From Eubacteriales bacterium (GTDB lineage Bacteria > Bacillota > Clostridia > Oscillospirales > CAG-382): a DNA stretch of 64,000 nt. A program made the position numbers and the translations under genes. Of this stretch, positions 2,462 through 62,748 are shown in pieces (position 1 is the first letter of the stretch; each line of letters starts with the position of its first letter). The notes beneath the pieces are model-generated. The model worked only from the letters and a program-made list of their open reading frames with translations. It ran no database searches and was not told the DNA's origin. Location of the stretch: NCBI GenBank assembly GCA_045533335.1, contig JAZSHQ010000055.1:1713-65712 (forward strand), given 5' to 3'.

Positions 2462-2991
2462 TCTTCCCCCTCCTTCAACATATTTTTAAGCATCGCCCTT
2501 GCGCGTAACAAACGCTTTTTCACGGTTTCGCCGTTTAAACCCAAAAGGTCCGCGATATGCTTCGGCTTCATATCGTCCAAGTATCGCAAAACGATAACCG
2601 TGCGGTATTTCTCGGGAAGCTTGTTTATACAGTCGGCAATTTTCGAAATATCGCTTTCCGAAATAATTCGTTCAAACTCGCTTTCCTCGAAGGGAATATC
2701 CATATCCTCTTCGATAAATATTTCTTTTCTGTTCTTTTTCAAAATGTTCAACGCCCTCGTTTTCGCCGCGCGCAAAGCATAAGCCGCCGTTTCGGGTGAA
2801 TCTGCATCGCCTAACTTACCGATATTTCTTGCTATGGCAACAAACGCTTCGTGTACCGCATCCTCGGCAAGATAGCTGTCGCCGAGTATCGAAAACGCCG
2901 CGGAATACATTTTATTTTTATACTTTTCGTAAATATACGCCAATTTTTCGCGGTCATCCGCTTTATCGGCAAGCGCCATATAAATAAGCAA
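2458..2991 (-). CDS. RNA polymerase sigma-70 family (ECF-type) sigma factor
   Basis: 177 aa. Region 2-like sequence AEDAVHEAFVAI and region 4 HTH (YRTVIVLRYLDDMKPKHIADLLGLNGETVKKRLLRAR) are present. The track start is TTG 2991, preceded by a G-rich SD; the alternative ATG is at 2979. Confidence 0.85.
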   Translation of the reverse strand: MLIYMALADKADDREKLAYIYEKYKNKMYSAAFSILGDSYLAEDAVHEAFVAIARNIGKLGDADSPETAAYALRAAKTRALNILKKNRKEIFIEEDMDIPFEESEFERIISESDISKIADCINKLPEKYRTVIVLRYLDDMKPKHIADLLGLNGETVKKRLLRARAMLKNMLKEGEE

Positions 2992-50717: not shown

Positions 50718-51404
50718 CTAAAGCTCGTAATAGCTCAGCCAAAGACCGTTGATTTTTTCTTCGAAAACCACAAATTTTATACGCAAGCCTAACTTTTCGT
50801 AGCGCAAAAGGCTGTAATAAACGTTTTCCGCACTGCTGTCGCGCGTGATTCCTTCGAGCGATATAAATTTGCCGAGCGGTAAAAGCGCATCTGCAATAAT
50901 ACTTTGCAATGCAGAAAGCGGAGTATATTTCTGCATAGTTTTGCCGAAAGCGTTGAACAGCTTTTCGTATTCGCCGTTTATAAAAGCTTGTGTGTTTTCG
51001 GCAACAAAAGCATTTTGTATCTGCTTTCGTTCGGGTGTGCAGAGTTTCGGCCCGAAAATATCTCCTCCGTTTTGTATTACGTTAAGCGCGTTATCGAGCA
51101 GACGAGCCGTTTTCGACATTTCTGCAAGCTTGGCAATAATTTCGGACTTGCGCCCGATGATCGCTTGCTCGAGCTCGCTGTCGCCCTTTTGTATTTCGGA
51201 TATTTGCAAAACCGAAAGTCCGAGCGACCGCAAAACCAATATCTTCTTTATAAGCTCAAGCTGATTTTCGGAATACTTGCGCCGATTCGAAAAATGTTTT
51301 GTGCTCTTAATTATACCCTTTTCCTCGTAAAAGCGCAGGGTGCGCGAGGTTATGCCGAGCATTTCGCAAACCTCGGTTATATCGAAAAGTCTTTCGTTTT
51401 CCAT
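50718..51404 (-). CDS. MerR-family transcriptional regulator
   Basis: 228 aa. The N-terminal HTH is FDITEVCEMLGITSRTLRFYEEKGII...RRKYSENQLELIKKILVLRSLGLS, followed by a C-terminal effector domain. Confidence 0.9.
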   Translation of the reverse strand: MENERLFDITEVCEMLGITSRTLRFYEEKGIIKSTKHFSNRRKYSENQLELIKKILVLRSLGLSVLQISEIQKGDSELEQAIIGRKSEIIAKLAEMSKTARLLDNALNVIQNGGDIFGPKLCTPERKQIQNAFVAENTQAFINGEYEKLFNAFGKTMQKYTPLSALQSIIADALLPLGKFISLEGITRDSSAENVYYSLLRYEKLGLRIKFVVFEEKINGLWLSYYEL

Positions 51405-51425
51405 ATCCGCGCCTCCCTTGCTGTT

Positions 51426-51457
51426 ATTATATCACTTGACGCAGGGTCAATGTCAAG
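51426..51457 (-). promoter_or_regulatory. MerR-type promoter: TTGACA-19 nt-TATAAT with a dyad operator CTTGAC-N11-GTCAAG spanning the -35 hexamer and spacer
   Basis: On the minus strand, -35 TTGACA lies at 51456-51451 and -10 TATAAT at 51431-51426, with a 19-nt spacer. The inverted repeat CTTGAC (51435-51440) / GTCAAG (51452-57) overlaps the -35 hexamer and most of the spacer. Confidence 0.7.
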
Positions 51458-51467
51458 TAGGAGCGAC

Positions 51468-51497
51468 AAAAAAAGCAGACAATGCGTCTGCTTTTTT
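51468..51497. terminator. Bidirectional rho-independent terminator
   Basis: The sequence is AAAAAAAGCAGAC-aatgc-GTCTGCTTTTTT. Confidence 0.75.
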
Positions 51498-51850
51498 CGG
51501 TTATAAGCTATGGGCTTGCTTAGCAAGCGTTATACAATAATTAATTCTTGTATTTTTCGGGGACATACGCCTCGAAAAATACACCTTGGGGCTTCGCGAA
51601 TTTGGACAAGCCCAAGCGCGTTTTACTGAGGACGCGCTATTTTGAGGCTAAAATCGGGTTTTTTGGCGAGAGGCTGTAGACATCTACTGCCCGAGCCGAA
51701 AAGCACGATAGAAAAAATCTTAATAAAAACCTTATTGTAACGATTATATCGCACGCAACGCCCTCGCGGGGAGAAGCGGTAAAACAATCTTAACCCCTAC
51801 CGCGGGAACATAAAAAAGATTTTTTCGGTTTAGACCAAAATAGAAGTCCT

Positions 51851-53845
51851 TTAATTTAACTTTACTGCGTGGGTAACACTACCGTAAGAGCAAGCCACAA
51901 GCAGATAATCGAGCGTGATCTGCTTTACGCTGTGTGCGGGGATGGTGATTTCATACTGATAGTTACTGAAAACGCCGCCGTTTTCGCCCAAGCCCGCGGT
52001 ATAATCCGCCGACAATACCTCGCCCGTGTTGCTGTCGCGCACAAGTATCGCAAGAGTGCCGTGGTCGCGCAGGTGGAGCGTTACCTTTCTTTCGGTATCG
52101 CCCTGATTAACAAAGGTGAAGTGATCCTGATATTCGATCATCCAGTTCGCGGTGTTTGCGGGTGCGCCCGAGCCGTCGGCGTGGTCGTTATCGATAACGA
52201 TTTCGTTGCCCTTCGTATCGTGCCATATAAACTCGACCATATCCATACCCACCGCTTGATGATTGTTTTGCGGGTTGAGGTGAGTCATCCAGGTGTATGC
52301 CTTGCTTACGGTATGCGCCGTGCTGTTGTAGTCGGCATAGGGGGTGGTTTTCGAAGGAACGCTGTTGTTATAGTAGTTGGTATAGGTAACGGGAAGCGAG
52401 CAAGCGGGTGTGTTATCGTTAAAGGTCCAGCTCATATAGTTATCGATAACGCCGTGATGATATGCAATGCCCGAATATTGCTGTGAATAAGCACCCGCAA
52501 CGTAACCCAAAGCCTCGGGCTCTGCTTGGACCTGCGATGCATTGGTATAGCAATACATAGTTCCGCTGACTTCGCCGCCCGTAACGGTAAATTTAACGTT
52601 GCCGTTTGCACAGCGAATGGGGTTTACGGGGTGGTCTGCCGAGCCGTCGACGTTGATTTTACGGTATGAATCGGCAGATGTGCCGCCGATAACCCAGAAA
52701 TATTCGCCCGCAGGCAGGCGGTAGGTTGTCGGCTGGTAAACGCGCGGTTTGATATTGATGTATGCATAATCGAGCCCCGAATATTTAGAAGAAATGGCGC
52801 CGTTGGAATTGAAATAATCGTCGGGAAGCTTAAAGGACGTGTTATAGAATTTATACCAAGCCTGCTGACCAAACCAAGTGCCTATCCATTGATACCCGAC
52901 GTTCGTAATCGTAATATAAACGTCGTGGTCGGTGTTGTTTTTAAGCTGATATCCGAGATAAGCATTGCCGCCCGAATAGTTCGCGTGCTCGAAGGTAACG
53001 TAGACCTCGCCCGTTAAGCCGTCGTTGCGCATAAACGCCTTGCCGACGTGCTGTGCGCCGAACTGCTCGGGGTTGTTCGAATAAACGTAGGTGCCGCCCT
53101 CGCGCTTGATATAGTCGATTTCGGCGGGGAGAAGCGGGTTTTCGCCGTCGTTATCGAGCACAAAGCCCGAAGTATCGATAGGCTTTGCAACGTCGTAGGG
53201 GAGCGTAACGAGGTGGTTTTCCGCCGTGGTGGTTATTTTAAAATCGGCGTTTGCTTCCTTTGTGGTAACCGTCAAGGTGTATGCCTCGTCGGCTTTTAAA
53301 GAAACCGAAAGCTCTGTTTTGCCGGACTTTACCTTTTCGCCGTTCTTGGTAAGCGTTATTCCCGTAATATTTTCACCCTTTAAGGTGTATTTATCGGTAT
53401 AGGGCGCGTAAACGGTATAGGAACGCGTTTTGTTCTCGTCGGTAAGGTCATCGATGCTCGAAAGGCGGAATGCGCTTGCTCTGTCCTCTTTATCCTCTTC
53501 GGGATCTTCGGGGTCGGAAACATCTTCCGAGGTATCGGACACGTCGGATTCCGAGCTTTCTTCGTCGGGAAGCGAGCTTTCCGCAGAAGTTTCATCGCTT
53601 GTTTCTTCCTGCGAGCTTTCGGCGTCAAGGCTTGCTTCGGTGCTTGCTTCGCTCGATTCCGCATCAAGGCTTGCTTCGGAGGAAGAATCCGAGCTTTCCT
53701 CGGCTTGCGAGGATGCAATACTGCCTTCCGAAACGGCTTCGGAAGAGGTGTTTTCGCCTTCGCTGCAGGCGGCAAAAACCGATAGCAACATTAAAATCGC
53801 CAAAATGATCGCCGTTATTCGCGAACGGTTGGTTTTTCTTTTCAT
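51851..53845 (-). CDS. Large secreted lipoprotein, unknown function, with an acidic Ser/Glu-rich linker
   Basis: 664 aa with lipobox LLSVFAAC. It has ~120 aa of S/E/D repeats (SSEASLDAESSEASTEASLDAESS), then a ~500-aa aromatic-rich globular region. Confidence 0.8.
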   Translation of the reverse strand: MKRKTNRSRITAIILAILMLLSVFAACSEGENTSSEAVSEGSIASSQAEESSDSSSEASLDAESSEASTEASLDAESSQEETSDETSAESSLPDEESSESDVSDTSEDVSDPEDPEEDKEDRASAFRLSSIDDLTDENKTRSYTVYAPYTDKYTLKGENITGITLTKNGEKVKSGKTELSVSLKADEAYTLTVTTKEANADFKITTTAENHLVTLPYDVAKPIDTSGFVLDNDGENPLLPAEIDYIKREGGTYVYSNNPEQFGAQHVGKAFMRNDGLTGEVYVTFEHANYSGGNAYLGYQLKNNTDHDVYITITNVGYQWIGTWFGQQAWYKFYNTSFKLPDDYFNSNGAISSKYSGLDYAYINIKPRVYQPTTYRLPAGEYFWVIGGTSADSYRKINVDGSADHPVNPIRCANGNVKFTVTGGEVSGTMYCYTNASQVQAEPEALGYVAGAYSQQYSGIAYHHGVIDNYMSWTFNDNTPACSLPVTYTNYYNNSVPSKTTPYADYNSTAHTVSKAYTWMTHLNPQNNHQAVGMDMVEFIWHDTKGNEIVIDNDHADGSGAPANTANWMIEYQDHFTFVNQGDTERKVTLHLRDHGTLAILVRDSNTGEVLSADYTAGLGENGGVFSNYQYEITIPAHSVKQITLDYLLVACSYGSVTHAVKLN

Positions 53846-53911
53846 TTTCCTATCTCCTTGTTGTTATACGGAATTATTATACAAACGAAATGTAATGGAT
53901 TTGTAAAATCC

Positions 53912-54805
53912 TTAAACAGAAAATTCAAACATTATCGCTTCGGTGTTATCCTCGGAATATTCAAGCTCCTCGGATATAACGCGGGCGAGCGTTACCGCGT
54001 CTTCCCCGCCGTTTTGCAAAAGCGAGGCAAGCAGCCTTTCGCAAAACAGACAAAAGCCAAGAGCTGCGCGGAATTCATCCTCGCACAGCGCGGCGGTACA
54101 ATGGCGGTAAACGAAATATGCGAGCGCACGTTCAAGCGTGTTTTCCTTCTCTGCGCAATTAAAAAGCTCGGAGGAATAGTGCGAAAACAGCCCGCGATGA
54201 GCGTTATCGAGATATTCGAGCGAGGAAAGCAATTCGCGCCAAGCGTTGTCCGAAATATCGGAAGGCGAAACGGCGAATTCACCGTATATCGCGTTCAGCC
54301 GTTGGTTATACGGTGTTTTTCGGTCGGACAGCAATGAATATACCCGTTTTCGCAATACGCGCGAATCATAATCCGCTTCTTCCCGCCCCTCGGCTTCGCC
54401 TATTTCGAGCATCTCGCCGTAACCGTCGGATGTTAGTATAAGCCGACACGCCTCCTCGCACGCCATCCCCAACCCGACTTCCAAGCCGTCTTTCGTTTGA
54501 TTGTAAAAGCGCGGATGCTCGCGGCAAATATCGCAAAGAAAGCCATCGCCGAGATTAAGAATTATCCTGCAAAGATTGTTTTCGTCAAGATGCGGACAGC
54601 ATTCGCCCTCGCAAAGCCGAAAATGCGGCGTTTCACCGCATTCGATGCTTTTTAATATCTCGCTTGCATAAGGGTGAGTAAGCGCGCGGTATTTGCAAAG
54701 CGCGGTGTCGTCGATATCGATCTCCCAGCCGACACAACAGCTATGCCTGCACTTGTCGGCAATACATTTGAATTTATTGTAATAGCTCGGTGCAAATAGC
54801 TTCAT
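53912..54805 (-). CDS. FliB-family Cys-rich protein (flagellin lysine-N-methylase-like)
   Basis: The start is set at MKLFAPSYYNKFKCIADKCRHSCCVGWEIDID after a GGAGG SD; this N-terminal Cys pattern is the family signature. No flagellar genes are in the window. Confidence 0.7.
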   Translation of the reverse strand: MKLFAPSYYNKFKCIADKCRHSCCVGWEIDIDDTALCKYRALTHPYASEILKSIECGETPHFRLCEGECCPHLDENNLCRIILNLGDGFLCDICREHPRFYNQTKDGLEVGLGMACEEACRLILTSDGYGEMLEIGEAEGREEADYDSRVLRKRVYSLLSDRKTPYNQRLNAIYGEFAVSPSDISDNAWRELLSSLEYLDNAHRGLFSHYSSELFNCAEKENTLERALAYFVYRHCTAALCEDEFRAALGFCLFCERLLASLLQNGGEDAVTLARVISEELEYSEDNTEAIMFEFSV

Positions 54806-54834
54806 TCTGCCGCCTCCGATTATTTGTTTCGAAT

Positions 54835-54863
54835 ATTTTACCACAAACGGCGCGGTTAGTCAA
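54835..54863 (-). promoter_or_regulatory. Sigma-70-type promoter (TTGACT-17 nt-TAAAAT, TGn extended -10)
   Basis: On the minus strand, -35 lies at 54863-54858 and -10 at 54840-54835. Confidence 0.55.
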
Positions 54864-54932
54864 TCAACCCTTACGTTACCGCTTCTCCATCGGGCGTTGT
54901 TTTGTTTTTTTGTTTTTGTTTCTTTTTCCGCA

Positions 54933-54954
54933 GGGAGCTTTTGCAAAAGCTCCC
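54933..54954. repeat. Perfect 22-bp palindrome GGGAGCTTTTGCAAAAGCTCCC
   Basis: Read directly from the sequence. It lies ~70 nt upstream of the -35 at 54863, with no flanking U-tract in either orientation, so it is not a canonical terminator. Confidence 0.85.
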
Positions 54955-55061
54955 CACACCCCGCAAAACCTTTTATATCAAAAAGCCATAATACGGTTAT
55001 AGCTTTACAATATCCGCCCATTACATATAGTCGGCAAACAAGCAAAAAGGTTTGCTGTTAT

Positions 55062-55916
55062 TTACAAATCCTTAAAAGAAACCGCAAGCAAATGCCCCGA
55101 CAAGCCGATTATTTCATCGTGAAAATCGAGCATTCGCACCGTACGCATCAACGCCTCGCGCGTGTCGGCGTTGCGCCACAGCGTTTCTATATCCTGCGCC
55201 AGCCACGCACCGCCCATAACTCCGTGAACGCGTGTATTTCGGAAACCGCAATCGGCAAGTTCCGCTTTCAATTCTTTTGCGGTATGCAGATGCGAGCTTC
55301 CAAGCCCGCCTACAATGCTTTTTTCGGGATTTATATGCCGACCGTCGCAAAGCTCGCGCTCGACCATATTGAAAAATTCGGGGTCGTCTAGCCTTTTGTT
55401 TTTGTTCCCATCTCCCGTTCGGTAAAGCGTTATGCTGTGAAGCAGGACCGAATAGGGCGTTATCGCCGCCGAAAACAGCAAGCCGCCATCTTTTAATAAC
55501 CGCTTGCTCTCGTTAATTGCTCTTATCCGTTCCTCGTATTCAAGCAAATGATAAAGCGGACCCATAAGCAATACCGCGTCTGCACTTTTGTCGGGACGGG
55601 GAACAGAGCGCGCATCACACACCTCACACGCAGCAAGGCTTACTTCGGGATATTCGGCTTTTAACGTCACGCTCATTTCGATATTTCTTTTCGATAAATC
55701 GAATAGATGCACCTCGTACCCCTTATCGGCGAGCCAATACGAATACTCGCCGTATCCCCCGCCGATATCGTAAATGACCGCGGGCGGGTTTGGAAGATAT
55801 TCCGAAAGAAGCTCCTTCGTGCGTTCGAACTCGATCAAGCCGATACCCTCTCTTAGCCTGTTCATTTCCCCGCCGCATTCGTAAAATTCCAGCACCGATT
55901 TGTCGATAGATTTCAT
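55062..55916 (-). CDS. Class I SAM-dependent methyltransferase
   Basis: 284 aa. Motif I is VIYDIGGGYGEYSYWLA, followed by the acidic strand end HLFDLS. Confidence 0.85.
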   Translation of the reverse strand: MKSIDKSVLEFYECGGEMNRLREGIGLIEFERTKELLSEYLPNPPAVIYDIGGGYGEYSYWLADKGYEVHLFDLSKRNIEMSVTLKAEYPEVSLAACEVCDARSVPRPDKSADAVLLMGPLYHLLEYEERIRAINESKRLLKDGGLLFSAAITPYSVLLHSITLYRTGDGNKNKRLDDPEFFNMVERELCDGRHINPEKSIVGGLGSSHLHTAKELKAELADCGFRNTRVHGVMGGAWLAQDIETLWRNADTREALMRTVRMLDFHDEIIGLSGHLLAVSFKDL

Positions 55917-55935
55917 AATTTACTCCTCTCAAAAA

Positions 55936-55982
55936 CAATAAAAATAAAACGGTTAAAGGCTCGGCGTGAGCTTTTAACCGTT
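55936..55982 (-). terminator. Rho-independent terminator of the TIR transcription unit
   Basis: On the minus strand a 15-bp stem (AACGGTTAAAAGCTC / GAGCCTTTAACCGTT, one G-U pair) is followed by TTTTATTTTTATT. Confidence 0.8.
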
Positions 55983-56013
55983 CTTGTGTTGATTTATTGT
56001 TGCGCGAACAACA

Positions 56014-56097
56014 TTACGAACGCAAGAAAACAAGCCCGTTGCCGATTGCGACAATGGGTTGCTGTTGATTCATTTTCGAATTTAACATACGAATCAT
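56014..56097 (-). CDS. Candidate 27-codon micro-ORF between the TIR stop codon and its terminator (speculative)
   Basis: Hand translation gives MIRMLNSKMNQQQPIVAIGNGLVFLRS*. An AAAGGAG SD (rc of 56106-56112) lies 8 nt before the ATG at 56097. There is no other support. Confidence 0.2.
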   Translation of the reverse strand: MIRMLNSKMNQQQPIVAIGNGLVFLRS

Positions 56098-56160
56098 TTT
56101 CCGCGCTCCTTTGAATTTCATTTAATATCATAAACGCTTGCGCGAGATGACGAATACAAA

Positions 56161-57006
56161 TTATCTGATATACATCAGCAACTTTGCTTTATATTCTTCA
56201 ACCAGCATAATTTCACAGCGACGAAAATCGATAGGAAGCACCGCTTTGTTGCTTTCCATTATTTGGTCGTGTACGTTTTTCGTAACAACCATTATAAAGT
56301 TCGAATTCTTTTTTCGTCCCTCGTCTATTTCAGATTGAAAAATCTGCATTTCGAGCTTTACCCAGTAACTCTCCATATACGAAAGATCCGAAAGCACTAC
56401 CACAAAATGCGAAGACTTATCGAGTGCGTGCATAATCGACTTTCTGTATTGCGATTCAGACCTTTCGGGAAGCGACTTTTTGTCATAAAAAACCCTTTTG
56501 CCGTTTTGCTTCATAAAATAATACATTTCTTCGGCAATAGCAATATCGTTGCTTTTATGGCTTATGTAAATGTCGTATTCCGAAGTGGGTTGCGCAGGTA
56601 TAGATTTGGGTTGCGAAGATTCCTGTTTCGGTTGCGAAGATTCCTGTTTCGGTTGCGGGGGCACCGATTTTCCGCTTGTTTTACTTTCGTTTTGCTTGCG
56701 CTTGATAAGCACCACATCGTCCTCGTTCCGAGGGAATTCTTTCTTTTGCGAAAATACAGAATCGGGCACAAATTCCGATTTGTATGTCGTTGAATCGTTT
56801 GTCAGGTCGCCGGCAACAGCAAAAAAATTCTTCGAGGGACCCTTTTTTACAAGCGAGCTATCTTTATTTTTCGGTGTTTTTTCTAATTCGGCAGGCGCGC
56901 TGAAGCAGGATTTCGGGTTTGCGGTTTTGACAACCTGCTTTGCGCCGCACAATGCGCAAAAGGCATCATCTGCGCCAATCGGTCTGCCGCATTTGCAACA
57001 TTTCAT
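56161..57006 (-). CDS. Zinc-ribbon / low-complexity linker / TIR-domain protein
   Basis: 281 aa. The N-terminal zinc ribbon is CCKCGRPIGADDAFCALCG. The linker is P/Q/S/K-rich with PKQESSQ repeats. The C-terminal TIR has YDIYISHKSNDIAIAEE...HFVVVLSDLSYMESYWVKLEMQIF. An AAGGAGGGAG SD precedes the start. Confidence 0.85.
   Translation of the reverse strand: MKCCKCGRPIGADDAFCALCGAKQVVKTANPKSCFSAPAELEKTPKNKDSSLVKKGPSKNFFAVAGDLTNDSTTYKSEFVPDSVFSQKKEFPRNEDDVVLIKRKQNESKTSGKSVPPQPKQESSQPKQESSQPKSIPAQPTSEYDIYISHKSNDIAIAEEMYYFMKQNGKRVFYDKKSLPERSESQYRKSIMHALDKSSHFVVVLSDLSYMESYWVKLEMQIFQSEIDEGRKKNSNFIMVVTKNVHDQIMESNKAVLPIDFRRCEIMLVEEYKAKLLMYIR
56609..56657. repeat. 21-bp tandem repeat (2.3 copies) inside the TIR-gene linker
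   Basis: GGTTGCGAAGATTCCTGTTTC occurs at 56609-56629 and 56630-56650, with a partial third copy. It encodes the SQPKQES repeats. Confidence 0.9.
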
Positions 57007-57074
57007 AAATGCTCCCTCCTTTTATTTTTTAACGACCTGTTTTTTCGCCACACGAAAGCGACAATTTATGACAT

Positions 57075-57103
57075 ATTATAGCATAACAATATACCATTTT
57101 CAA
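57075..57103 (-). promoter_or_regulatory. Sigma-70-type promoter (TTGAAA-17 nt-TATAAT) dedicated to the TIR gene
   Basis: On the minus strand, -35 lies at 57103-57098 and -10 at 57080-57075, ~70 nt upstream of the ATG. Confidence 0.65.
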
Positions 57104-57136
57104 GCCTTTGCAGATAAATTCGCAGGTTATATATCA

Positions 57137-57170
57137 AAACACCGCCGAGGGAAATTCGGCGGTGTTTTTT
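57137..57170 (-). terminator. Rho-independent terminator downstream of pfp (bidirectional form)
   Basis: The sequence is AAAACACCGCCGA-gggaaat-TCGGCGGTGTTTTTT. The stem is nearly identical to that at 58990-59021. Confidence 0.8.
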
Positions 57171-57202
57171 GTTATTCGCTTTATGGTTTGCCGTTTCGCG
57201 GC

Positions 57203-58864
57203 TTATTTACCCTGTTCGAGAGCGAGAGTGATAGTGGTTGCATCGCAAACCTCGCTCGGGCCGAAGTACTGAATAGCACCGGGATAAACGAAGCAGGTAT
57301 TTTCTGCCCATTCCGCTCTGTTTGCGGCGAAATACTTGAAGGGCGCGCCGTCGAGCTCAACAAGAGCCTTGCGGATAACGGGCTTGTCCTTACCGTGTCT
57401 TCTTTCGATGTTCATCATCTTGGTCATAGGCATACCGCCTGCAACCCATTCCTCTGCGGGATTGCTGAGGTTGGAAACCTTGGAAAGGTAGCCGGTGTAG
57501 CCGTACTGGATGAGCATAAACGCGTTGTAGCCGAGAGAGTAGCAGTAGTCTGCATCGAAGTTCGAGGGGAACGCGCAACGGCCCTCGTAGCCGAGGAAGT
57601 GGTGGAGTGCCGAGAACTTGCCGTTGTAGGTGCCTGCTGCCTTGCGAGCCTTGAGGTTATCTGCAACGAGTGCAGAGAAAAGCTTTTCGGATTCGATAAG
57701 CGAAACCTGAACGTTACCGTGGGGGTCGCGTTCCAAGAAGAGCTGCTGCTGAATAGATTCGGGAAGGATAGCGAAAACAGCCATGGATTCCTTGGTAAGA
57801 CCGTTTTCGATAAACGCATATTTATCTGCCCAAGTGGGAAGTGCATTGAACGCATCGGTCTTTTCGCCTGCAAGAAGTTCATTGATTTCTGCGATAAGCA
57901 CAGAGAATTCGGGAACGAATTCAACTATACCTTCGGGAATGATAGCAACGCCGAAGTTCCAGCCCTTTGCCGCACGGGGGGCAACAGAATCTGCGATGTA
58001 ATCTGCGATTTCTGCCATAGACATCTTCTTTGCGGCAACTTCTTCGCCGATAAGGCAGATGTTGGGGCGGGTCTGAAGCGCACATTCAAGCGCAACGTGA
58101 GAAGCCGAACGGCCCATAACCTTAACGAAGTGCCAATACTTCTTTGCAGAGTTTGCGTCGCGTTCGATATTACCGATGATTTCGGAATAGGTCTTTGCCG
58201 CGGTATCGAAGCCGAAGGAGCATTCGATATCCTCATTCTTAAGGTCGCCGTCGATGGTTTTGGGACAGCCGATAACCTGAACGCCTGCGTTGTTTGCCGC
58301 AAAATATTCTGCCAAAACAGCTGCGTTGGTATTCGAGTCATCGCCGCCGATGATAACGATAGCGTTAATGCCGTGCTTTTTGCAAACCTCTGCTACAACA
58401 GCAAACTGTTCTTCGGTTTCGAGCTTAGTTCTGCCCGAGCCGATAATATCGAAGCCACCGGTGTTGCGGTACTGATTGATGTACTCGTCATCAAAAATAA
58501 TATAATCGTCTTCCAAAAGACCGGAGGGACCGCCCTTGAAACCGTAAAGAACGTTATCCTTGTCGGTTGCCTTTAATGCATCGTACAAGCCGCAGATAAC
58601 GTTGTGTCCGCCGGGAGCCTGACCGCCGGAGAGGATAACGCCGACCTTCTGAGTCTTAGCTTCTGCAGTGTTCTGACCTTTTTGAAAGGTGATTTCGTTC
58701 TTGCCGTAGGTGTTAGGGAACAACGCCTGGATCTTTTCCTGATCCGCAACACTTTCGGTTGCGCCGCCGTTCTTAACGCAGATTTCGGAAATACCGTTTC
58801 TGAGCATACCGGGCAACTTGGGGGTGTACTGATATCTTGCTGTCTGAAGAGGTGAAAGTTTCAT
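57203..58864 (-). CDS. pfp: Diphosphate--fructose-6-phosphate 1-phosphotransferase (PPi-dependent phosphofructokinase, long form)
   Basis: 553 aa. The sequence is typical of PPi-PFK, including [36 protein letters not shown] and MGRSASH. Confidence 0.95.
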
Positions 58865-58989
58865 TAAAATGACACTCCTTATATTACTAAAAATTCATAA
58901 CTAATGGCATTATACCCTATTTTGCGACAAATGTAAATAGCATTTTCTATTTTTTCCGATATGCATTTCGGATTCGATACGCCGTAAGC

Positions 58990-59021
58990 AAACACCGCCG
59001 AGATAGCTTTCGGCGGTGTTT
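58990..59021 (-). terminator. Hairpin terminating the MutS-like operon (weak U-tract)
   Basis: The sequence is AAACACCGCCGA-gatagctt-TCGGCGGTGTTT, with the same stem sequence as 57137-57170. Confidence 0.6.
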
Positions 59022-59092
59022 GATCGTTTTTATTAAATGACTTAGGTATTTAAAATTTCAATTATCATCTTCATCAAAATATATACACTGTT

Positions 59093-60673
59093 TTAAGCAT
59101 TCTCCATAGTTTGTGCAGCTTTCGCATTTTTTACTATTTCACTTTTTGTCAAACCGAACGCCTGAGCAATATCAGAAGCATAGCTTTTGCCGCCGTTACC
59201 ACGCACAATCTTGAAAATTCGTTTGTGGGAACCTTCATCGATTTGCGCCGTGAGGTTGTCAATACCTTCGTATTCTTCGCTCAAATCACATAGCTCATGA
59301 AAATGTGTCGCAAATATACCTTTTGAACCTATCTCCAAATACGCCGTGATAATCTCTGTTGAAATGGCTACCGCTTCTGCCGCATTCGTGCTTGAAAGTG
59401 CTTCATCAAATAAAAACAAGCTGTCTTTGGTGATAAATTTATTAATGCTTTGAATTTTGTTACATTCATCCGAAAGCCGTCCGTGAACGTATGAACGCTT
59501 TCTTATATCGACGAAATGAATAAATATATTATCAACAAGACGCAAAACAGCTTTGTTTGCAGGAAGCAACAAGCCCAAATGTAGCATAGCATACATTATT
59601 CCCACTGATTGTGTGTAAATAGATTTGCCACCTTGGTTAGGTCCGGTAAGAATATATATCGAATGTTGTTTATCAAAACAAAGCTCGTTTTTTACTACAT
59701 CATTTTTGCTTAAAGCGGACATTGCTAAAACAGGATGATATAGACCTGTTACTTCATCAGAAGTGCTCAAACCGGGTTTGCAAACTGCAAATCCCGATCC
59801 GATCAATTCATATAACACCTTGGTGCAAACCGAAACGAAAGTCCATTCATAAAGAATATTGGATAAATGACGCAGATTATTTATAATATGTTTTTTAATT
59901 ATACCCGACCAAGATTTCAACGAAGAAGATAATACTTTATTCATTGCAGAATTTATTGATGTACGAATAATATAAAATTCTTCGTTTGTCAATTTATGAT
60001 TTAACGGAAGCAGAGGAGCAGGACAATAAAAGTCGTCATTTCCAAAGTCCAATCTCAAAAGCTTATTCAGATAATCACCTGATACAAAACTCTGTTCATT
60101 GATAGTCAAAACACCTGCTTCGGAAGGTCTGAGTTGACTATCAAGATTTACACCAACAGTAATGCTCTTAATGTTTCTGATTTCATGAGATTGTTTTTCA
60201 ACTGCCTTACAAAGTGTATCAAAGTCATCTCCCTCGCATAACGGCTTTAATAACTCCCACAAAACCTTCAATGCTTTACTATTAACGTTAACGCTATGAA
60301 AAATATCCTTCATTTTTGTGAGGTATTCAACATATGCTTCTATTTCCCTAACGCTATACAATAATTTTTCGTTATTTTCCACCGTATCTTTTTGGTTTTG
60401 TAATGCGTAAATGTTTGCAAGACTTTCAAAACTCGAATCAAGCTTTTCAAATAGAGTTTTGTCGCTTAATAATTCTTCAAATAACTCTTGGCGCAATTCA
60501 AGTGTATCGGGACAAACCGAGAAAAACTCGCATAGCTCGTTTTCTTTCTCTCCGATCTTCTTGCCACGGTTGATATTAATTAAATTTTTAATGTCTAAAG
60601 CTTCAACAAACGAATAATCATCAAAAGCAATTCTGTTATCCTGTTCTGCCCAAATAATACTACTTAACATCAT
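59093..60673 (-). CDS. MutS-related ATPase A (MutS domain III/V core only; no mismatch-binding, Smr or nuclease domain)
   Basis: 526 aa. Walker A is TGPNQGGKSIY, Walker B is LFLFDEALSSTN, and ATHFHEL and the tail RGNGGKSYASDIAQAFGL are present. The gene is low-GC, and its SD GAGG overlaps the end of the upstream membrane ORF. Confidence 0.85.
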   Translation of the reverse strand: MMLSSIIWAEQDNRIAFDDYSFVEALDIKNLININRGKKIGEKENELCEFFSVCPDTLELRQELFEELLSDKTLFEKLDSSFESLANIYALQNQKDTVENNEKLLYSVREIEAYVEYLTKMKDIFHSVNVNSKALKVLWELLKPLCEGDDFDTLCKAVEKQSHEIRNIKSITVGVNLDSQLRPSEAGVLTINEQSFVSGDYLNKLLRLDFGNDDFYCPAPLLPLNHKLTNEEFYIIRTSINSAMNKVLSSSLKSWSGIIKKHIINNLRHLSNILYEWTFVSVCTKVLYELIGSGFAVCKPGLSTSDEVTGLYHPVLAMSALSKNDVVKNELCFDKQHSIYILTGPNQGGKSIYTQSVGIMYAMLHLGLLLPANKAVLRLVDNIFIHFVDIRKRSYVHGRLSDECNKIQSINKFITKDSLFLFDEALSSTNAAEAVAISTEIITAYLEIGSKGIFATHFHELCDLSEEYEGIDNLTAQIDEGSHKRIFKIVRGNGGKSYASDIAQAFGLTKSEIVKNAKAAQTMENA

Positions 60674-60686
60674 GCAACCTCAAAAT

Positions 60687-60989
60687 TCAAAATATCAAAA
60701 TATTTAGTTCCACCCCGCAAGCAAGAGCAAGGATAGGAAGTAAAATCAAATACAAAGTGGAAAATTTGTAGGAACGCCAAATTTTAGAAAAGAGATAATA
60801 AAAATAACAAACAAACAGCAAAATCGGCAATGCAATAATAACAAGCGTTGAAAACGTAAGTGCAATTAGAAAAGCGCTGACAATAAAGAAAATGAAAAAT
60901 ATTTTCAATAGCTTGTAAGTGGGAGAATCTATCAAATAGATTGTGCTTATATTCAGTATTCGTTCTGCAAATCTTGCAAATAATTTCAT
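60687..60989 (-). CDS. Small polytopic membrane protein (2-3 TM helices) embedded between the MutS-like genes
   Basis: 100 aa with an AGAGG SD 8 nt upstream. It lies 27 nt after gene B and 13 nt before gene A. Hydrophobic stretches are IFFIFFIVSAFLIALTFSTLVIIALPILLFVCYFYYLF and LYLILLPILALACGV. Confidence 0.6.
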   Translation of the reverse strand: MKLFARFAERILNISTIYLIDSPTYKLLKIFFIFFIVSAFLIALTFSTLVIIALPILLFVCYFYYLFSKIWRSYKFSTLYLILLPILALACGVELNILIF

Positions 60990-61016
60990 AACACAACCTC
61001 TTTTGACTTTCTACAC

Positions 61017-62582
61017 TTAATGTCCACGCATTTCTATTAACGTTTCATATTTCAAACCGTATTTATCTGCAATGCTTTTGGCATAGCTTTTACCGTCGGG
61101 CAAAGTACGTAATATTTTATAATTTCTATTTCCGTTCTCATCAATATCCGCTGAAAGTGTATCGATTTTTGATTTACAAGTTTTGCAGTTATTTATCTCC
61201 GATAACATAGCAGTTAATTCATGAAGATGAGTGGAAAAGACACCTTTGCATCCGTATGCAGACATACCTTTAAGAACGTCAAGAGCAATATATTTGCCTT
61301 CCAACGCATCAGTGCTCGAAAATGTTTCGTCCATCAAAACAAGGCTATGTTCGGTTAAAGATTCAAAAATGCTTTTTACCTTCGCACACTCTTCTTCCAA
61401 CCTGCCTTTGTCTTTTGAATTTGATTTATTAGTAAAACAAACGAATACTCTATCAACAGGACTGATTTCTGCATATTTCGCGGGAACAAGAAAACCGAGT
61501 TGCGTAAAAACCTGACAAATCCCCACGGCAGAAGTAAACACACTTTTGCCGCCGCTGTTGGGACCGAGAATAAGATAAATCCGCCCATTCTCATCAAATT
61601 CAATGTCATTGAGAACGATTTTATCTTTTGACAATGCGATCAGGGGATTATACAATCCCCTAACCGAAAAAGTTTTATCCGTTTTAGGCTTAATGATTGG
61701 AACTGTTAAGGGCATTTTTGCTTCTTTTAGTTCGTTCAATATTTTTGCACCGAATAACAAATATTTTAATTCTTTAATAAGGGGCAAAAATGCTTTTGTG
61801 TTTTGTCTGAAAAAAGCTTTAACCGCAGGCTCCCATTCTTTTATAGAACCTTTAAACAATCTGTTTAAAACAGAACCGATAGCCATATCCGCAAAACGCT
61901 TTTCTTCATTTGAGAGTGATTTTGACATCACTTTTAACGGACATAGCGCATTCAAATTATCTTTTTCGCTACGATTTATAAGGTTACCAATGAAATCATT
62001 GGATACAACAGATTTATCGTTCAACGATAGTACACCGAATTCGTAAGGCGAAAAGGTTGCATCCAAATTCATCCCTATAGTTACACTTTTGACTTGGCTG
62101 ATTGCTTTTGATAGCTTTTGTGTATTTGCAACTAATTTGATAAACGCTTCATCGGTTGCTATATCGGCGACAAACTGCGCAAAATTCAGCAAAGAACAAG
62201 ATTTTATTCTCCCTTTCAGTTTTTCGGTTTTGCGATAAATCTTGTTTATAAGCTCAATATAAAGCTCGATAAGCTTAATAGAATATATTTGCCCTTCGGT
62301 TTCGTGGCTGTTATCCTTCAAACGATACAGTTCGTTTATATTTTCAAGAATAGGTAAAATTTCTTGCAACAAGTCTAAAACTTCGGGTTCGTTTAATATA
62401 TCTGCAAATATTTCTTGGCGGTATTGAATGATCTCAACATCCTCTGTCAAAAATTCGCTAATGTTAAAATCCCTGCAATAAAGATAATTTCCAAACAAGG
62501 TTTTAAAATCATCGTCATTTATGAGCAGTTGTTGGTTAAATTGATTTTTAGGGTATATAAGACTTAAATAAAGGTCATTCAT
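61017..62582 (-). CDS. MutS-related ATPase B (paralogue of A; MutS domain III/V core only)
   Basis: 521 aa. Walker A is LGPNSGGKSVF, Walker B is LVLMDETFSSTD, and STHLHEL and the tail LPDGKSYAKSIADKYGL are present. The gene is low-GC and preceded by an AAGGTGA SD. Confidence 0.85.
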   Translation of the reverse strand: MNDLYLSLIYPKNQFNQQLLINDDDFKTLFGNYLYCRDFNISEFLTEDVEIIQYRQEIFADILNEPEVLDLLQEILPILENINELYRLKDNSHETEGQIYSIKLIELYIELINKIYRKTEKLKGRIKSCSLLNFAQFVADIATDEAFIKLVANTQKLSKAISQVKSVTIGMNLDATFSPYEFGVLSLNDKSVVSNDFIGNLINRSEKDNLNALCPLKVMSKSLSNEEKRFADMAIGSVLNRLFKGSIKEWEPAVKAFFRQNTKAFLPLIKELKYLLFGAKILNELKEAKMPLTVPIIKPKTDKTFSVRGLYNPLIALSKDKIVLNDIEFDENGRIYLILGPNSGGKSVFTSAVGICQVFTQLGFLVPAKYAEISPVDRVFVCFTNKSNSKDKGRLEEECAKVKSIFESLTEHSLVLMDETFSSTDALEGKYIALDVLKGMSAYGCKGVFSTHLHELTAMLSEINNCKTCKSKIDTLSADIDENGNRNYKILRTLPDGKSYAKSIADKYGLKYETLIEMRGH

Positions 62583-62748
62583 ATCTCACCTTGAATGGAT
62601 TTTATATGGTTTATTAAACGTATATATCGCTCGCTTTCCTTTGCATTAGGCTTGATTATTGTTAATCCCAAGATCAGCGATATATGATATAACATAATTT
62701 GACTACTTATAATCTATTACAGAACTAATCTGTTAAGAAACTATTTTT

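What the first reader, a model, noticed from the sequence alone, without database searches (positions are those of the whole stretch)
56014..57103. Orphan zinc-ribbon-TIR gene as a self-contained low-GC transcription unit
**Protein.** The 281-aa protein combines three parts:
- an N-terminal CxxC...CxxC zinc ribbon;
- a ~110-aa P/Q/S/K low-complexity linker;
- a C-terminal TIR domain (DIYISHKSND..., VVVLSDLSYMESYWVKLEMQIF).

The Glu four residues after the Trp (W-V-K-L-E) aligns with the SxWCxxEL glutamate. That residue is catalytic in NAD-cleaving TIRs of plants and of bacterial defence systems.

**Context.** The gene has its own near-consensus promoter (57103-57075) and its own strong terminator (55936-55982). 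Hand-counted GC is ~33-42%, against 55-60% in the neighbours. No recognised partner is adjacent: no SIR2/SLOG ThsA, no CBASS, STING or Argonaute module. It therefore does not match canonical Thoeris or other named TIR systems.

**Micro-ORF.** A 27-codon ORF with a strong AAAGGAG SD sits between the stop codon and the terminator (56097-56014). It could be a co-transcribed partner peptide.
Basis: partly seen in the sequence, partly recalled or inferred. Interest (0 to 1): 0.7.

Follow-up and report, generated by a model that had tools for sequence, protein, structure and literature searches.

The report
Solitary zinc-ribbon TIR gene, gut Clostridia
This is a real, intact gene for a small cytoplasmic protein with an NAD-cleaving-type TIR immune domain behind a zinc ribbon and a floppy linker; it is an unusual one-off rearrangement of a common but unstudied family of gut-bacterial TIR proteins, most likely a single-gene phage-defence protein, and only moderately novel.

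Summary
The gene (56161-57006, minus strand, 281 aa) is real. It has three parts:
- a CxxC-x10-CxxC zinc ribbon;
- a roughly 115-aa basic K/S/P/Q linker, predicted disordered;
- a C-terminal TIR domain (Pfam TIR_2 E=8.7e-14; AF2 pLDDT 92.6; Foldseek matches SARM1 and AbTir TIRs).

W215-x3-E219 is invariant in 33 relatives and aligns with the AbTir W-x3-E motif. The near-consensus promoter, the strong terminator and the SD-led 27-codon ORF are all present.

The GC contrast was overstated. The gene is 42% GC (TIR part 38%) against about 50% in the neighbours.

The TIR is 54-70% identical to the C-terminal TIR of an uncharacterised family. Its members are about 580 aa (TIR-helical-TIR), solitary, and found in gut Clostridia MAGs with a different neighbourhood in every genome. 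Here the N-terminal TIR and the helical region are replaced by the zinc ribbon and linker. No other protein found shares this architecture.

No Thoeris, CBASS, SPARTA, Avs or retron partner lies within -5.4/+6.9 kb. In PFK-based relatives the gene is absent, and the slot holds other genes.

Best reading: a self-contained, oligomerisation-gated TIR NADase acting in defence, like SpbK or the E. coli single-protein TIR systems. This is untested.

The micro-ORF is statistically unlikely to be chance, but it is not found at any related locus.

The parts
57075..57103 (-). Sigma-70-type promoter: -35 TTGAAA (57103-57098), 17-nt spacer ending in TGc, -10 TATAAT (57080-57075)
   Evidence: 11 of 12 matches with an extended -10 TG. 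It lies between the PFK terminator and the TIR start codon.
57015..57020 (-). Shine-Dalgarno AGGAGG, 8 nt before the ATG at 57006
   Evidence: Read directly from the sequence.
56161..57006 (-). CDS of the 281-aa zinc-ribbon / disordered-linker / TIR protein (stop codon TAA at 56163-56161)
   Evidence: The only Met upstream of the TIR core is M1, so the N-terminal part must be translated together with the TIR.
56947..57000 (-). C4 zinc ribbon, residues 3-20 (CCKCGRPIGADDAFCALC)
   Evidence: The motif is read directly. Pfam DZR E=0.033 and Zn_Ribbon_1 E=0.051, both below cut-off. AF2 pLDDT 75-79 with beta-bridges. The same 'MKCCKCGR...FCxxCG' prefix heads an unrelated 763-aa protease-type protein in L018.
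56587..56946 (-). Basic K/S/P/Q-rich linker, predicted disordered, residues 21-140
   Evidence: AF2 pLDDT 38-58 with no secondary structure. Composition and pI 9.5, no TM segment. No homologue in the 150 best relatives or in any related locus.
56605..56657 (-). In-frame 21-bp tandem repeat, 2.5 copies, encoding the PKQESSQ repeats inside the linker
   Evidence: TRF: 96% matches, score 99.
56164..56586 (-). TIR domain, residues 141-281
   Evidence: Pfam TIR_2 E=8.7e-14, above the gathering score. AF2 pLDDT 92.6, pTM 0.87. Foldseek PDB: SARM1, AbTir, MAL, MyD88 and SPARTA TIRs at TM 0.64-0.72. 54-70% identity to the C-terminal TIR of ~580-aa proteins.
56350..56364 (-). Codons for W215-V-K-L-E219, the putative catalytic Glu and its partner Trp
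   Evidence: W and E are invariant in 33 family members. They align with the W...E of AbTir-type chains 7uxr and 7uwg.
56014..56097 (-). 27-codon ORF (MIRMLNSKMNQQQPIVAIGNGLVFLRS) with AGGAG at 56110-56106, lying between the TIR stop codon and the terminator
   Evidence: Chance rate 0.06-0.7% in simulated spacers. It is the only hit under 59 codons by the same criterion in the window. No Pfam or PADLOC hit. No counterpart at related loci. Whether it is translated is unproven.
55936..55982 (-). Intrinsic terminator: 16-bp interrupted stem (55982-55948) plus a T-tract
   Evidence: dG -21.9 kcal/mol, z -7.0, 0 of 200 shuffles fold as well. The hairpin was also found by the pattern scan.
57136..57168 (-). 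Terminator of the upstream PPi-phosphofructokinase gene; upstream boundary of the TIR unit
   Evidence: dG -21.5 kcal/mol, z -5.7. DNA similarity to relatives ends exactly at the PFK stop codon, 57203.
55062..55916 (-). Class I SAM-dependent methyltransferase gene. It starts 32 nt after the terminator T-tract, may be reached by read-through, and shares the variable slot with the TIR gene
   Evidence: Pfam Methyltransf_11 and Methyltransf_25. No promoter predicted between the TIR gene and this gene. Absent from all TIR-relative and PFK-relative loci.

Best explanation
The gene encodes a cytoplasmic, stand-alone TIR-domain enzyme.

**Architecture**
- The C-terminal 141 residues are a catalytically competent-looking TIR. 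It has the beta-A motif D-I-Y-I-S-H and W215-x3-E219 on helix alpha-C.
- This TIR is of the type that forms the C-terminal TIR of a widespread, uncharacterised clostridial TIR-helical-TIR family.
- In this genome the family's N-terminal TIR and helical region have been replaced by a C4 zinc ribbon and a ~115-aa basic disordered tether (shown).

**Expression and locus**
- It is expressed from its own strong promoter and is followed by a strong terminator (shown from sequence signals).
- It sits in a variable slot next to a conserved PFK gene. It is absent from that slot in the nearest sampled relatives (shown).

**Inferred mechanism**
- Like SpbK and the single-protein E. coli TIR systems, it idles as an inactive monomer or dimer.
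- An infection-derived cue is bound by, or concentrates, the zinc-ribbon/basic-linker end.
- The TIR domains then cluster into head-to-tail assemblies, and the composite active sites cleave NAD+ using E219.
- NAD+ depletion, or ADPR/cADPR-type products, then arrest the infected cell (abortive infection).
- No separate effector is needed.
For: **TIR identity and fold**
-.

**Catalytic residues**
- The Glu and Trp are invariant and align with AbTir.
- All 14 family-invariant positions are retained.

**Expression signals and localisation**
- Intact ORF with strong SD, promoter and terminator.
- No TM segment, so cytoplasmic.

**No conserved partner**
- None within -5.4/+6.9 kb here.
- Neighbours differ at the relatives' loci whose flanks were scanned or came pre-annotated (five): RuvX/NAGLU-like, GH123/2-hydroxyacid dehydrogenase, two-component system/DUF6273, MFS, and PTS-EI/YgjP.
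- This argues that the family works alone.

**Accessory character**
- PFK is 88% identical in nucleotides in L020-L022, but similarity stops at its stop codon.
- The slot before the FliB-like gene holds other genes there.

**Precedent**
- SpbK is necessary and sufficient for defence and is activated by clustering on a phage portal (PMC12847820).
- Four of nine new E. coli TIR systems are single proteins that need the TIR active site (PMC11350192).
Against: - There is no functional data of any kind.
- The architecture is unique: no orthologue and no second example in 1.8 billion cluster representatives (top 150 inspected) or in the metagenome scan. Selection on the fusion therefore cannot be assessed.
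- It lacks the helical SYERL..YC...ECIDRI segment, which precedes the TIR in at least 61 of 85 close relatives. That segment may be needed for regulation or assembly.
- The neighbourhood is housekeeping (rml genes, PFK), not a defence island.
- Relatives are absent from sequenced phages and plasmids.
- In relatives the gene's GC tracks the host genome, which is more like a long-resident gene than a mobile defence gene.
- Only 64 kb of the genome is visible, so a distant partner cannot be excluded.
- Many gut-bacterial TIR domains showed no NADase activity in vitro (PMC9092222).
Confidence: 0.5

Rival explanations
1. It is a signal-generating TIR (ThsB-like sensor). Its product, a cADPR isomer or His-ADPR, activates an effector encoded elsewhere in the genome, outside this window.
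For: - PADLOC ThsB models are the next-best hits after PDC-S66 (E 2e-8 to 4e-3).
- NCBIfam gives a weak hit to Thoeris type III ThcB4 (7e-6).
- Thoeris loci are known to carry several interchangeable ThsB sensors (general knowledge).
- Only 64 kb of a contig of at least 75 kb is visible.
Against: - Pfam ThsB_TIR is below its cut-off (15.3 against 21.2 bits).
- NCBIfam scores are far below their cut-offs (25-34 bits against 220-600).
- No SIR2/SLOG, Macro, caspase-like or TM effector lies next to this gene, nor next to the relatives at the five loci whose flanks were scanned or came pre-annotated.
Confidence: 0.15
2. It is an evolutionary by-product. A deletion or recombination fused the 5' end of a zinc-ribbon-prefixed gene to the last domain of a TIR-helical-TIR gene. 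The chimera is expressed but unregulated or inert, and is on its way to loss.
For: - The architecture is unique, with no orthologue.
- The helical segment and N-terminal TIR, which nearly all close relatives keep, are missing.
- The same 'MKCCKCGR' zinc-ribbon prefix heads unrelated proteins.
- The N part has host-like GC (47%) and the TIR part is lower (38%).
- The linker carries a slippage-prone 21-bp repeat.
Against: - The 281-codon frame is open.
- Every family-invariant TIR residue is kept at 68-70% identity to the nearest relatives.
- The promoter is near-consensus and the SD is strong.
- No fragments of the lost parts remain in any frame, so the event is not very recent.
Confidence: 0.2
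3. It is a TIR protein with a non-defence role. Examples are NAD(P) turnover or production of ADPR-type metabolites in the gut, or a Tcp-like modulator of host TIR signalling.
For: - The nearest solved sequence relatives include the Brucella BtpA/TcpB and Paracoccus TIR proteins.
- The host is a gut Clostridia lineage.
- Gut-bacterial TIRs make ADPR and variant cADPRs that are detectable in vivo (PMC9092222).
- The chromosomal context is housekeeping, and in relatives the gene's GC is host-like.
Against: - There is no signal peptide or TM segment and no secretion system nearby.
- The gene is strain-variable, which does not suit a core metabolic function.
Confidence: 0.1
4. This concerns the micro-ORF and hairpin only. 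They are a leader peptide and attenuator that control the downstream methyltransferase gene, not a partner of the TIR protein.
For: - The layout matches that of leader-peptide attenuators: SD-led short ORF, then an intrinsic terminator, then (32 nt later) the SD and ATG of the methyltransferase.
- That gene has no promoter of its own.
Against: - No antiterminator is evident. With the 3' arm removed, the 5' arm of the terminator stays largely unpaired, and forcing it to pair gains nothing.
- There is no Rfam match.
- The methyltransferase is a generic class I enzyme, not an Erm- or Cfr-type resistance gene.
Confidence: 0.1

Closest known systems
Uncharacterised clostridial TIR-helical-TIR proteins (~560-600 aa; e.g. 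P0003-P0012; loci L010-L016 in yak, sheep, goat and other animal-gut (source not always given) Clostridia MAGs)
   Same: - The C-terminal TIR is 54-70% identical.
- It shares all family-specific invariants: W-x3-E, E-x2-EGRK, NK, R, Y.
- These genes are solitary, without a conserved neighbour.
- They come from the same bacterial class and habitat.
   Different: - The window protein lacks the N-terminal plant-like TIR, the ~300-aa helical region and the conserved SYERL..YC..ECIDRI segment.
- It carries a zinc ribbon and a disordered linker instead.
- The family itself has no known function, no curated model and no solved structure.
SpbK (YddK) of Bacillus subtilis ICEBs1, a single-protein TIR NADase abortive-infection system
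   Same: - A small Firmicute protein with an N-terminal recognition part and a C-terminal TIR.
- It is sufficient on its own.
- Its activity depends on TIR self-association driven by a clustered phage trigger (PMC12847820).
- This is the mechanistic model adopted here.
   Different: - No chain named SpbK appeared among the PDB matches at E<=1.
- SpbK's N-terminal part is a folded domain that docks on the portal; here it is a zinc ribbon plus a disordered tether.
- SpbK is carried on an ICE; this gene sits in a chromosomal housekeeping context.
E. coli single-protein TIR defence systems (TIR-II, -V, -VI, -IX; Wang et al. 2024)
   Same: - One-gene TIR systems whose defence needs the conserved TIR active-site residues.
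- Some consist of little more than a short TIR domain (PMC11350192).
   Different: - They come from a different phylum.
- None is reported with a zinc ribbon: the word 'zinc' is absent from that paper.
Thoeris ThsB
   Same: - TIR fold with a catalytic Glu.
- Weak profile similarity to several PADLOC ThsB models.
   Different: - No ThsA-type effector is adjacent.
- Pfam ThsB_TIR is below its cut-off.
- The C-terminal beta-sheet extension of ThsB is absent from the model.
PADLOC candidate single-gene system PDC-S66
   Same: - It is the best PADLOC hit (E=8.7e-15).
- It is a single-gene TIR candidate of similar length (282 profile positions).
   Different: - Only the TIR part of the profile is matched (positions 110-234), here and in the double-TIR relatives.
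- The first ~110 profile positions have no counterpart.
- PDC-S66 is itself an untested candidate, mentioned only in strain-annotation papers.
AbTir / BtpA-type bacterial TIR NADases and the SARM1 TIR
   Same: - They are the closest solved structures by sequence profile and by fold.
- The D-x-F-I-S-H beta-A motif and the W-x3-E catalytic motif are shared.
   Different: - Identity is only 17-23%.
- N-terminal regions differ: coiled coil in AbTir, ARM-SAM in SARM1.

Membership tests
TIR domain superfamily (Pfam TIR_2, PF13676) | Profile match above the curated gathering score | tested here: met
   52.5 bits against a cut-off of 28, E=8.7e-14, residues 146-262.
TIR domain superfamily (Pfam TIR_2, PF13676) | Flavodoxin-like five-strand beta/alpha fold that superposes on solved TIR domains | tested here: met
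   AF2 pLDDT 92.6 with alternating strands and helices. Foldseek probability 1.00 and TM 0.64-0.72 to SARM1, AbTir, MAL, MyD88 and SPARTA TIRs.
Enzymatic (NADase-type) TIR domains | Catalytic Glu on helix alpha-C, four residues after a conserved aromatic residue (AbTir W204/E208 and SARM1 W638/E642; residue numbers from memory) | tested here: met
   W215 and E219 are invariant in 33 relatives. They align with the W and E of chains 7uxr and 7uwg. The catalytic role of this Glu is documented for AbTIR, TcpO and ThsB (bioRxiv 10.1101/2022.09.19.508568).
Enzymatic (NADase-type) TIR domains | Measured NAD+ cleavage that depends on the Glu | not testable with these tools
   Needs an enzyme assay.
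Thoeris (ThsB + ThsA) | ThsB-type TIR-like domain (PF08937) above its cut-off | tested here: not met
   15.3 bits against a cut-off of 21.2. PADLOC ThsB hits are only E 2e-8 or weaker and partial.
Thoeris (ThsB + ThsA) | Adjacent ThsA-type effector (SIR2-SLOG, Macro-TM or caspase-like) | tested here: not met
   Every ORF of 100 aa or more from 50718 to 63894 was scanned. Found: MerR, a secreted 664-aa protein, FliB-like, class I MTase, PPi-PFK, two MutS_V ATPases and an ABC transporter. The rest of the genome is not visible.
CBASS / Pycsar / SPARTA / Avs / retron-TIR / Cat1 effectors | TIR fused or adjacent to SAVED, STING, a cyclase, APAZ-pAgo, a STAND NTPase, a reverse transcriptase or CARF | tested here: not met
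   None of these domains is in the protein or its neighbours. The retron-TIR model scores 33.6 bits against a cut-off of 600.
PADLOC PDC-S66 | Match over the whole 282-position profile | tested here: not met
   Only profile positions 110-234 are matched, corresponding to protein residues 100-231. The same TIR-only match occurs in relatives.
Clostridial TIR-helical-TIR family (uncharacterised) | C-terminal TIR with W-x3-E, E-x2-EGRK, NK and R signature | tested here: met
   54-70% identity, with all invariant columns shared.
Clostridial TIR-helical-TIR family (uncharacterised) | N-terminal TIR plus helical region, including the SYERL..YC..ECIDRI segment | tested here: not met
   The N-terminal 138 aa have no similarity to any of the 150 relatives. 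No remnant is found in any frame of the window. The motif is present in at least 61 of 85 close relatives.
Zinc ribbon (Pfam DZR / Zn_Ribbon_1) | Two CxxC knuckles and a profile match above the cut-off | tested here: inconclusive
   CxxC-x10-CxxC is present. Profile scores are 14.8 and 13.8 bits against cut-offs of 27.3 and 25. AF2 pLDDT is 75-79.
SpbK-like stand-alone TIR abortive-infection proteins | A single gene is sufficient for phage resistance, and the NADase is activated by trigger-driven clustering | not testable with these tools
   Analogy only (PMC12847820).

The most novel reading that the evidence does not exclude
The zinc-ribbon/disordered-tether TIR and the SD-led 27-residue peptide encoded in its 3' region could form a new two-part module. 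The peptide would hold a strongly expressed, self-assembling TIR NADase in check, in the manner of an antitoxin or assembly cap, until infection removes it.

More broadly, the solitary TIR-helical-TIR family from which this TIR derives could be an undescribed single-protein immune receptor of gut Clostridia. It would pair a plant-like TIR with an AbTir-like TIR in one chain.
Probability: 0.07. Interest if true: 0.7.

Novelty: new variant of a known kind. Interest (0 to 1): 0.32.

Why it matters
Single-protein TIR defence systems are an established class, so a further one would not change the picture.

Two points have some value:
- **A large untouched family.** This gene points to at least 58 clusters (50% identity) at E<1e-30 of solitary TIR-helical-TIR proteins in gut Clostridia. 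The family has no curated model, no structure and no known function.
- **A natural minimal construct.** The window protein carries that family's C-terminal TIR behind nothing but a zinc knuckle and a disordered tether. It could show whether that TIR is an autonomous NADase, and what the missing sensor half contributes.

The SD-led micro-ORF is a cheap, testable candidate for a small regulator.

Tried and rejected
- **Remnants of the lost domains.** tblastn of seven full-length relatives against the whole window found only the C-terminal TIR. The gene is therefore not a frameshifted double-TIR gene.
- **Conservation of the micro-ORF and the N-terminal 138 aa.** No match below E=0.2 at any of the 17 loci held at that point (L001-L017). 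The metagenome scan with N-terminal peptide patterns found only a generic zinc-ribbon prefix on a protease-type protein.
- **Leader-peptide attenuator model** for the micro-ORF and hairpin. No antiterminator structure was found.
- **Structured RNA in the UTRs.** Nothing reached an Rfam gathering score. The 3' region folds only moderately (z -3.1), mostly because of the terminator.
- **Phage or plasmid carriage.** No tblastn match in 50,697 phage or 72,556 plasmid records. IMG/VR gave only a distant giant-virus TIR.
- **Exact-sequence look-ups** of the TIR, PFK and MTase proteins. None is on record.
- **First genome scan with the 33-sequence alignment.** It failed for lack of a conserved stretch. 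It was repeated with six close sequences.
- **PDC-S66 membership.** Rejected, because only the TIR part of the profile matches.
- **MADS (mad2) link for the methyltransferase.** Rejected, because only the generic SAM-binding fold matches, and the gene never accompanies TIR relatives.
- **Literature on tandem-TIR bacterial proteins.** Nothing relevant was found.
- **The zinc-ribbon-containing TIR protein in the L005 array.** It is not a homologue: only the ribbon and a K-rich stretch align, at pairwise E=0.001.
Full report

The minus strand carries an ATG-initiated ORF at 57006-56161 encoding 281 aa. It has three parts.

- *Zinc ribbon.* Residues 3-20 read CCKCGRPIGADDAFCALC, a CxxC-x10-CxxC zinc-ribbon motif. 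The Pfam zinc-ribbon models only reach E 0.03-0.05, below their cut-offs. A full-length AlphaFold2 model gives this stretch pLDDT 75-79 with beta-bridges.
- *Linker.* Residues ~23-140 are 66% P/Q/S/K/E/T/N with pI 9.5. They have no hydrophobic segment and are modelled without secondary structure at pLDDT 38-58. They contain an in-frame 21-bp tandem repeat at 56605-56657, 2.5 copies, encoding PKQESSQ.
- *TIR domain.* Residues 146-262 match Pfam TIR_2 at E=8.7e-14, 52.5 bits against a gathering score of 28.

The expression signals are also as described.

- The promoter is TTGAAA-17-TATAAT with an extended TG (57103-57075), scoring 11/12.
- An AGGAGG lies 8 nt before the ATG.
- The downstream hairpin 55982-55948 plus T-tract folds at -21.9 kcal/mol (z -7.0).
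- The upstream PFK gene has its own terminator at 57168-57136.

The 27-codon ORF (56097-56014) with AGGAG 8 nt upstream is present.

- In 20,000 first-order Markov simulations of the 178-nt spacer, an ATG ORF of 27 codons or more with such an SD arises in 0.06% (strict SD) or 0.7% (loose SD) of cases.
- Across both strands of the 64-kb window the strict criterion picks 25 ORFs. The micro-ORF is the shortest, the next is 59 codons, and most are long ORFs.
- It is therefore more than chance would give. That does not show it is translated.

One stated observation fails: the GC contrast.

- The gene is 42.3% GC (N part 47.1%, TIR part 37.7%).
- The flanking genes are 50% and the window mean is 46.7%, not 55-60%.
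- In seven related loci the whole TIR gene tracks its host genome (36-56% GC). The C-terminal TIR is 0.1-6 points (median about 4) lower than its locus in every case.
- Much of the dip is therefore the K/N/I/Y/F-rich composition of this domain.

**2. What is the TIR domain?**

An exhaustive HMMER search of 1.84 billion cluster representatives gave 1488 hits at E<1e-3, 399 at E<1e-10 and 58 at E<1e-30. All similarity lies in residues ~139-281.

The best hits (50-62% identity there) are almost all 560-600 aa. They have:
- an N-terminal TIR (Pfam TIR and TIR_2, usually with S-x-W-C-x-x-E-L);
- a ~300-aa helical region without any Pfam domain;
- a C-terminal TIR, which is the part that matches the window protein.

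In an alignment of 33 such C-terminal TIRs the following are invariant (window-protein numbering): D145, F173, L179, Y187, I191, W215, E219, E226, R231, K232, N253, K254, R262 and Y279.

The structural and sequence comparisons agree.
- An AlphaFold2 model of the domain built from that alignment has pLDDT 92.6 and pTM 0.87, with the expected alternating strands and helices.
- Foldseek against PDB returns TIR domains of SARM1, Hydra TRR-2, TIR-1, MAL, AbTir, SPARTA and MyD88 at TM 0.64-0.72, probability 1.00.
- A profile search of PDB sequences puts AbTir-type proteins first (7uxr 2.4e-6, 7uwg 4.5e-6, AbTIR 8g83 1.1e-5). It aligns the family's '...sk-W-vkl-E-me...' with 'kkn-W-tey-E-ln' and 'kkd-W-tny-E-ld'.
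- The Glu four residues after the Trp is therefore in the position of the catalytic Glu. I recall this as AbTir E208 and SARM1 E642.
- The requirement for this Glu in AbTIR, TcpO and ThsB is documented in bioRxiv 10.1101/2022.09.19.508568.

**3. What is unusual?**

The N-terminal half is unusual.

- The first 138 residues have no similarity to any of the 150 best relatives. Only one of those (P0145) has a zinc ribbon at all, and there it follows the TIR.
- Eight loci in GTDB species-representative genomes encode close relatives (54-70% identity over the TIR). All are animal-gut Clostridia MAGs where a source is stated (yak, sheep, goat, rabbit), including one assigned to Candidatus Avispirillum.
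- Seven of the eight could be read end to end. Six are 582-598 aa TIR-helical-TIR genes. The seventh has the same parts inside a longer 752-aa mechanical ORF that also spans a sigma-70-like stretch.
- At least 61 of 85 close representatives keep a recognisable SYERL..YC...ECIDRI helical segment just before the C-terminal TIR. The window protein has none.
- tblastn of seven full-length relatives against the whole window finds only the C-terminal TIR, with no remnants in any frame.
- A metagenome scan using peptide patterns that included the N terminus found a single locus, L018. Its ORF begins MKCCKCGR...FCQYCG and continues as a double zinc ribbon, low-complexity linker, TM segment and trypsin-like protease.

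The ribbon-plus-linker is thus a generic Firmicute N-terminal 'prefix' module.

The simplest history is that such a prefix replaced the N-terminal TIR and helical region of a double-TIR gene. The junction lies immediately before strand beta-A.

The only Met upstream of the TIR core is M1, so the TIR cannot be made without the prefix.

**4. Context**

From 50718 to 63894, every ORF of 100 aa or more was scanned. The genes found are:
- a MerR regulator;
- a 664-aa secreted acidic protein;
- a FliB-like lysine methylase;
- a class I SAM methyltransferase;
- the TIR gene;
- PPi-phosphofructokinase;
- two low-GC MutS-domain-V ATPases;
- an ABC transporter.

Further upstream lie rmlABCD-type genes and a glycosyltransferase. 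There is no SIR2, SLOG, Macro, SAVED, STING, cyclase, Argonaute/APAZ, STAND NTPase, reverse transcriptase or CARF domain. There is also no integrase or transposase.

The relatives have no conserved neighbour either.
- Five single-gene relatives' loci had flanks scanned or pre-annotated, and each differs: RuvX and a NAGLU-like hydrolase; GH123 and a 2-hydroxyacid dehydrogenase; a two-component system and DUF6273; an MFS transporter; PTS enzyme I and YgjP-like.
- One human-gut lineage has an array of five to six consecutive, mutually divergent TIR genes instead.

On this sample, the refutation criterion 'homologues always occur inside a known multi-gene system' is not met.

The gene is accessory.
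- PFK proteins 96-97% identical occur on long contigs of related Clostridia/Ruminococcaceae MAGs.
- In three such contigs the DNA is 87-89% identical across PFK, and the similarity ends exactly at the PFK stop codon.
- Downstream of PFK they carry either a 179-182-aa unknown plus an Opp-type ABC transporter, or an HTH-TPR regulator, a 433-aa protein and a beta-lactamase-family protein before a FliB-like gene.
- Compared with L022, the window has TIR plus methyltransferase in the PFK-to-FliB-like slot.

A caveat on 'self-contained': the methyltransferase ATG (55916) is 32 nt beyond the terminator T-tract, and no promoter is predicted for it. Some read-through is therefore plausible. The methyltransferase never accompanies TIR relatives in the loci held.

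**5. Mechanism**

*Shown:*
- a TIR fold with all hallmarks of enzymatic TIRs;
- no partner nearby;
- cytoplasmic location;
- strong expression signals;
- an accessory locus.

*Inferred:*
- TIR NADases are active only when self-associated (reviewed in PMC12847820).
- A strongly expressed, unregulated NADase would be harmful.
- The protein is therefore most likely kept inactive until its N-terminal end is clustered by an infection-derived ligand. The basic tether and zinc knuckle suggest nucleic acid or a multimeric phage protein.
- E219-dependent NAD+ cleavage would then arrest the cell.

*Precedents:*
- The single-protein TIR systems of E. coli require the TIR active site (PMC11350192).

I put this at about 0.5. 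The rivals are:
- a ThsB-like signal generator with a distant effector (0.15);
- an inert or decaying chimera (0.2);
- a non-defence NAD-metabolic or host-directed role (0.1).

For the micro-ORF, a leader-peptide attenuator for the methyltransferase was considered. No antiterminator can be drawn, and no Rfam family matches. The peptide has no homologue at any related locus.

**6. Comparison with known systems**

- It is a member of the TIR superfamily and has the catalytic signature of enzymatic TIRs.
- It is not Thoeris: ThsB_TIR is below its cut-off and there is no ThsA.
- It is not a CBASS, Pycsar, SPARTA, Avs, retron or Cat1 effector.
- It is not a full-length PDC-S66 match. Only the TIR part of that profile aligns, as it also does for the double-TIR relatives.
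- NCBIfam has no model for it or for its relatives; the best scores are 25-74 bits against cut-offs of 220-600.
- No relative has a solved structure.
- None occurs in the phage or plasmid collections.
- It works most like SpbK or the E. coli single-protein TIR systems, without being a sequence relative of any of them that I could detect.

**7. Verdict**

This is a real gene and a correct TIR call. The 'orphan' status is correct in the sense of lacking a partner. The low-GC island claim is overstated, and the micro-ORF partner idea is unproven.

It is a new variant (zinc ribbon-tether-TIR) of a known kind (stand-alone TIR defence candidates). It derives from a large, unstudied clostridial TIR-helical-TIR family, and that family is probably the more worthwhile target. 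Interest is moderate to low (0.32).

Noticed in passing
window 59093-62582 (-), plus 60687-60989: Two adjacent paralogous ATPase genes (526 and 521 aa) carry only MutS domain V and no mismatch-binding domains. A 100-aa hydrophobic ORF lies between them. All are at ~35% GC against ~50% in the adjacent PFK gene, so this is a much clearer low-GC island than the TIR gene. They have no PADLOC hit, and their MutS2/KamC-like scores are far below the cut-offs.
   Followed up: partly
window 57203-58864 and flanks; L020, L021, L022: The PPi-phosphofructokinase gene is conserved in related MAGs (88% nt, 97% aa), but the DNA on both sides differs. Similarity ends at the stop codon and about 90 nt upstream of the start. 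PFK is therefore an anchor between two variable slots in this lineage.
   Followed up: yes
L004-L009 (e.g. L005 872-8815), human-gut metagenome contigs: An array of five to six consecutive, mutually divergent TIR_2 genes. They comprise a 367-aa gene, a 492-aa gene with an internal zinc ribbon, a 548-aa TIR+FHA gene, an 84-aa fragment, a 425-aa gene and a 164-aa gene. The array is followed by AAA-ATPase_like/PDDEXK_9 and DUF488 genes. It looks like a diversified TIR repertoire or a defence island.
   Followed up: partly
L010-L016 (e.g. L011 8651-10435); proteins P0003-P0012: An uncharacterised ~580-aa TIR-helical-TIR family. The N-terminal TIR is closest to plant NLR TIRs (RPV1, RUN1). The C-terminal TIR is closest to AbTir/BtpA. 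The N-TIR Glu is usually but not always kept (P0005 has Q), whereas the C-TIR W/E pair is invariant. The genes are solitary and their GC matches the host.
   Followed up: partly
window 55062-55916 (-): A class I SAM methyltransferase gene begins 32 nt after the TIR terminator and has no predicted promoter. It shares the variable slot with the TIR gene. Its PADLOC 'mad2' hit covers only the SAM-binding fold.
   Followed up: partly
window 56605-56657: A perfect-frame 21-bp tandem repeat (2.5 copies) lies inside the disordered linker. It is a likely site of length variation by slippage.
   Followed up: no
window 51851-53845 (-): A 664-aa predicted secreted protein has a ~100-aa Ser/Glu/Asp-rich acidic low-complexity region after the signal-like N terminus. 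It has no significant Pfam, NCBIfam or PADLOC match.
   Followed up: no
L014 5225-7483: In one Clostridiaceae MAG the double-TIR reading frame runs on, without a stop codon, from a sigma-70-like region (similar to window 2464-2988). It could be a real fusion or an artefact of mechanical ORF calling.
   Followed up: no
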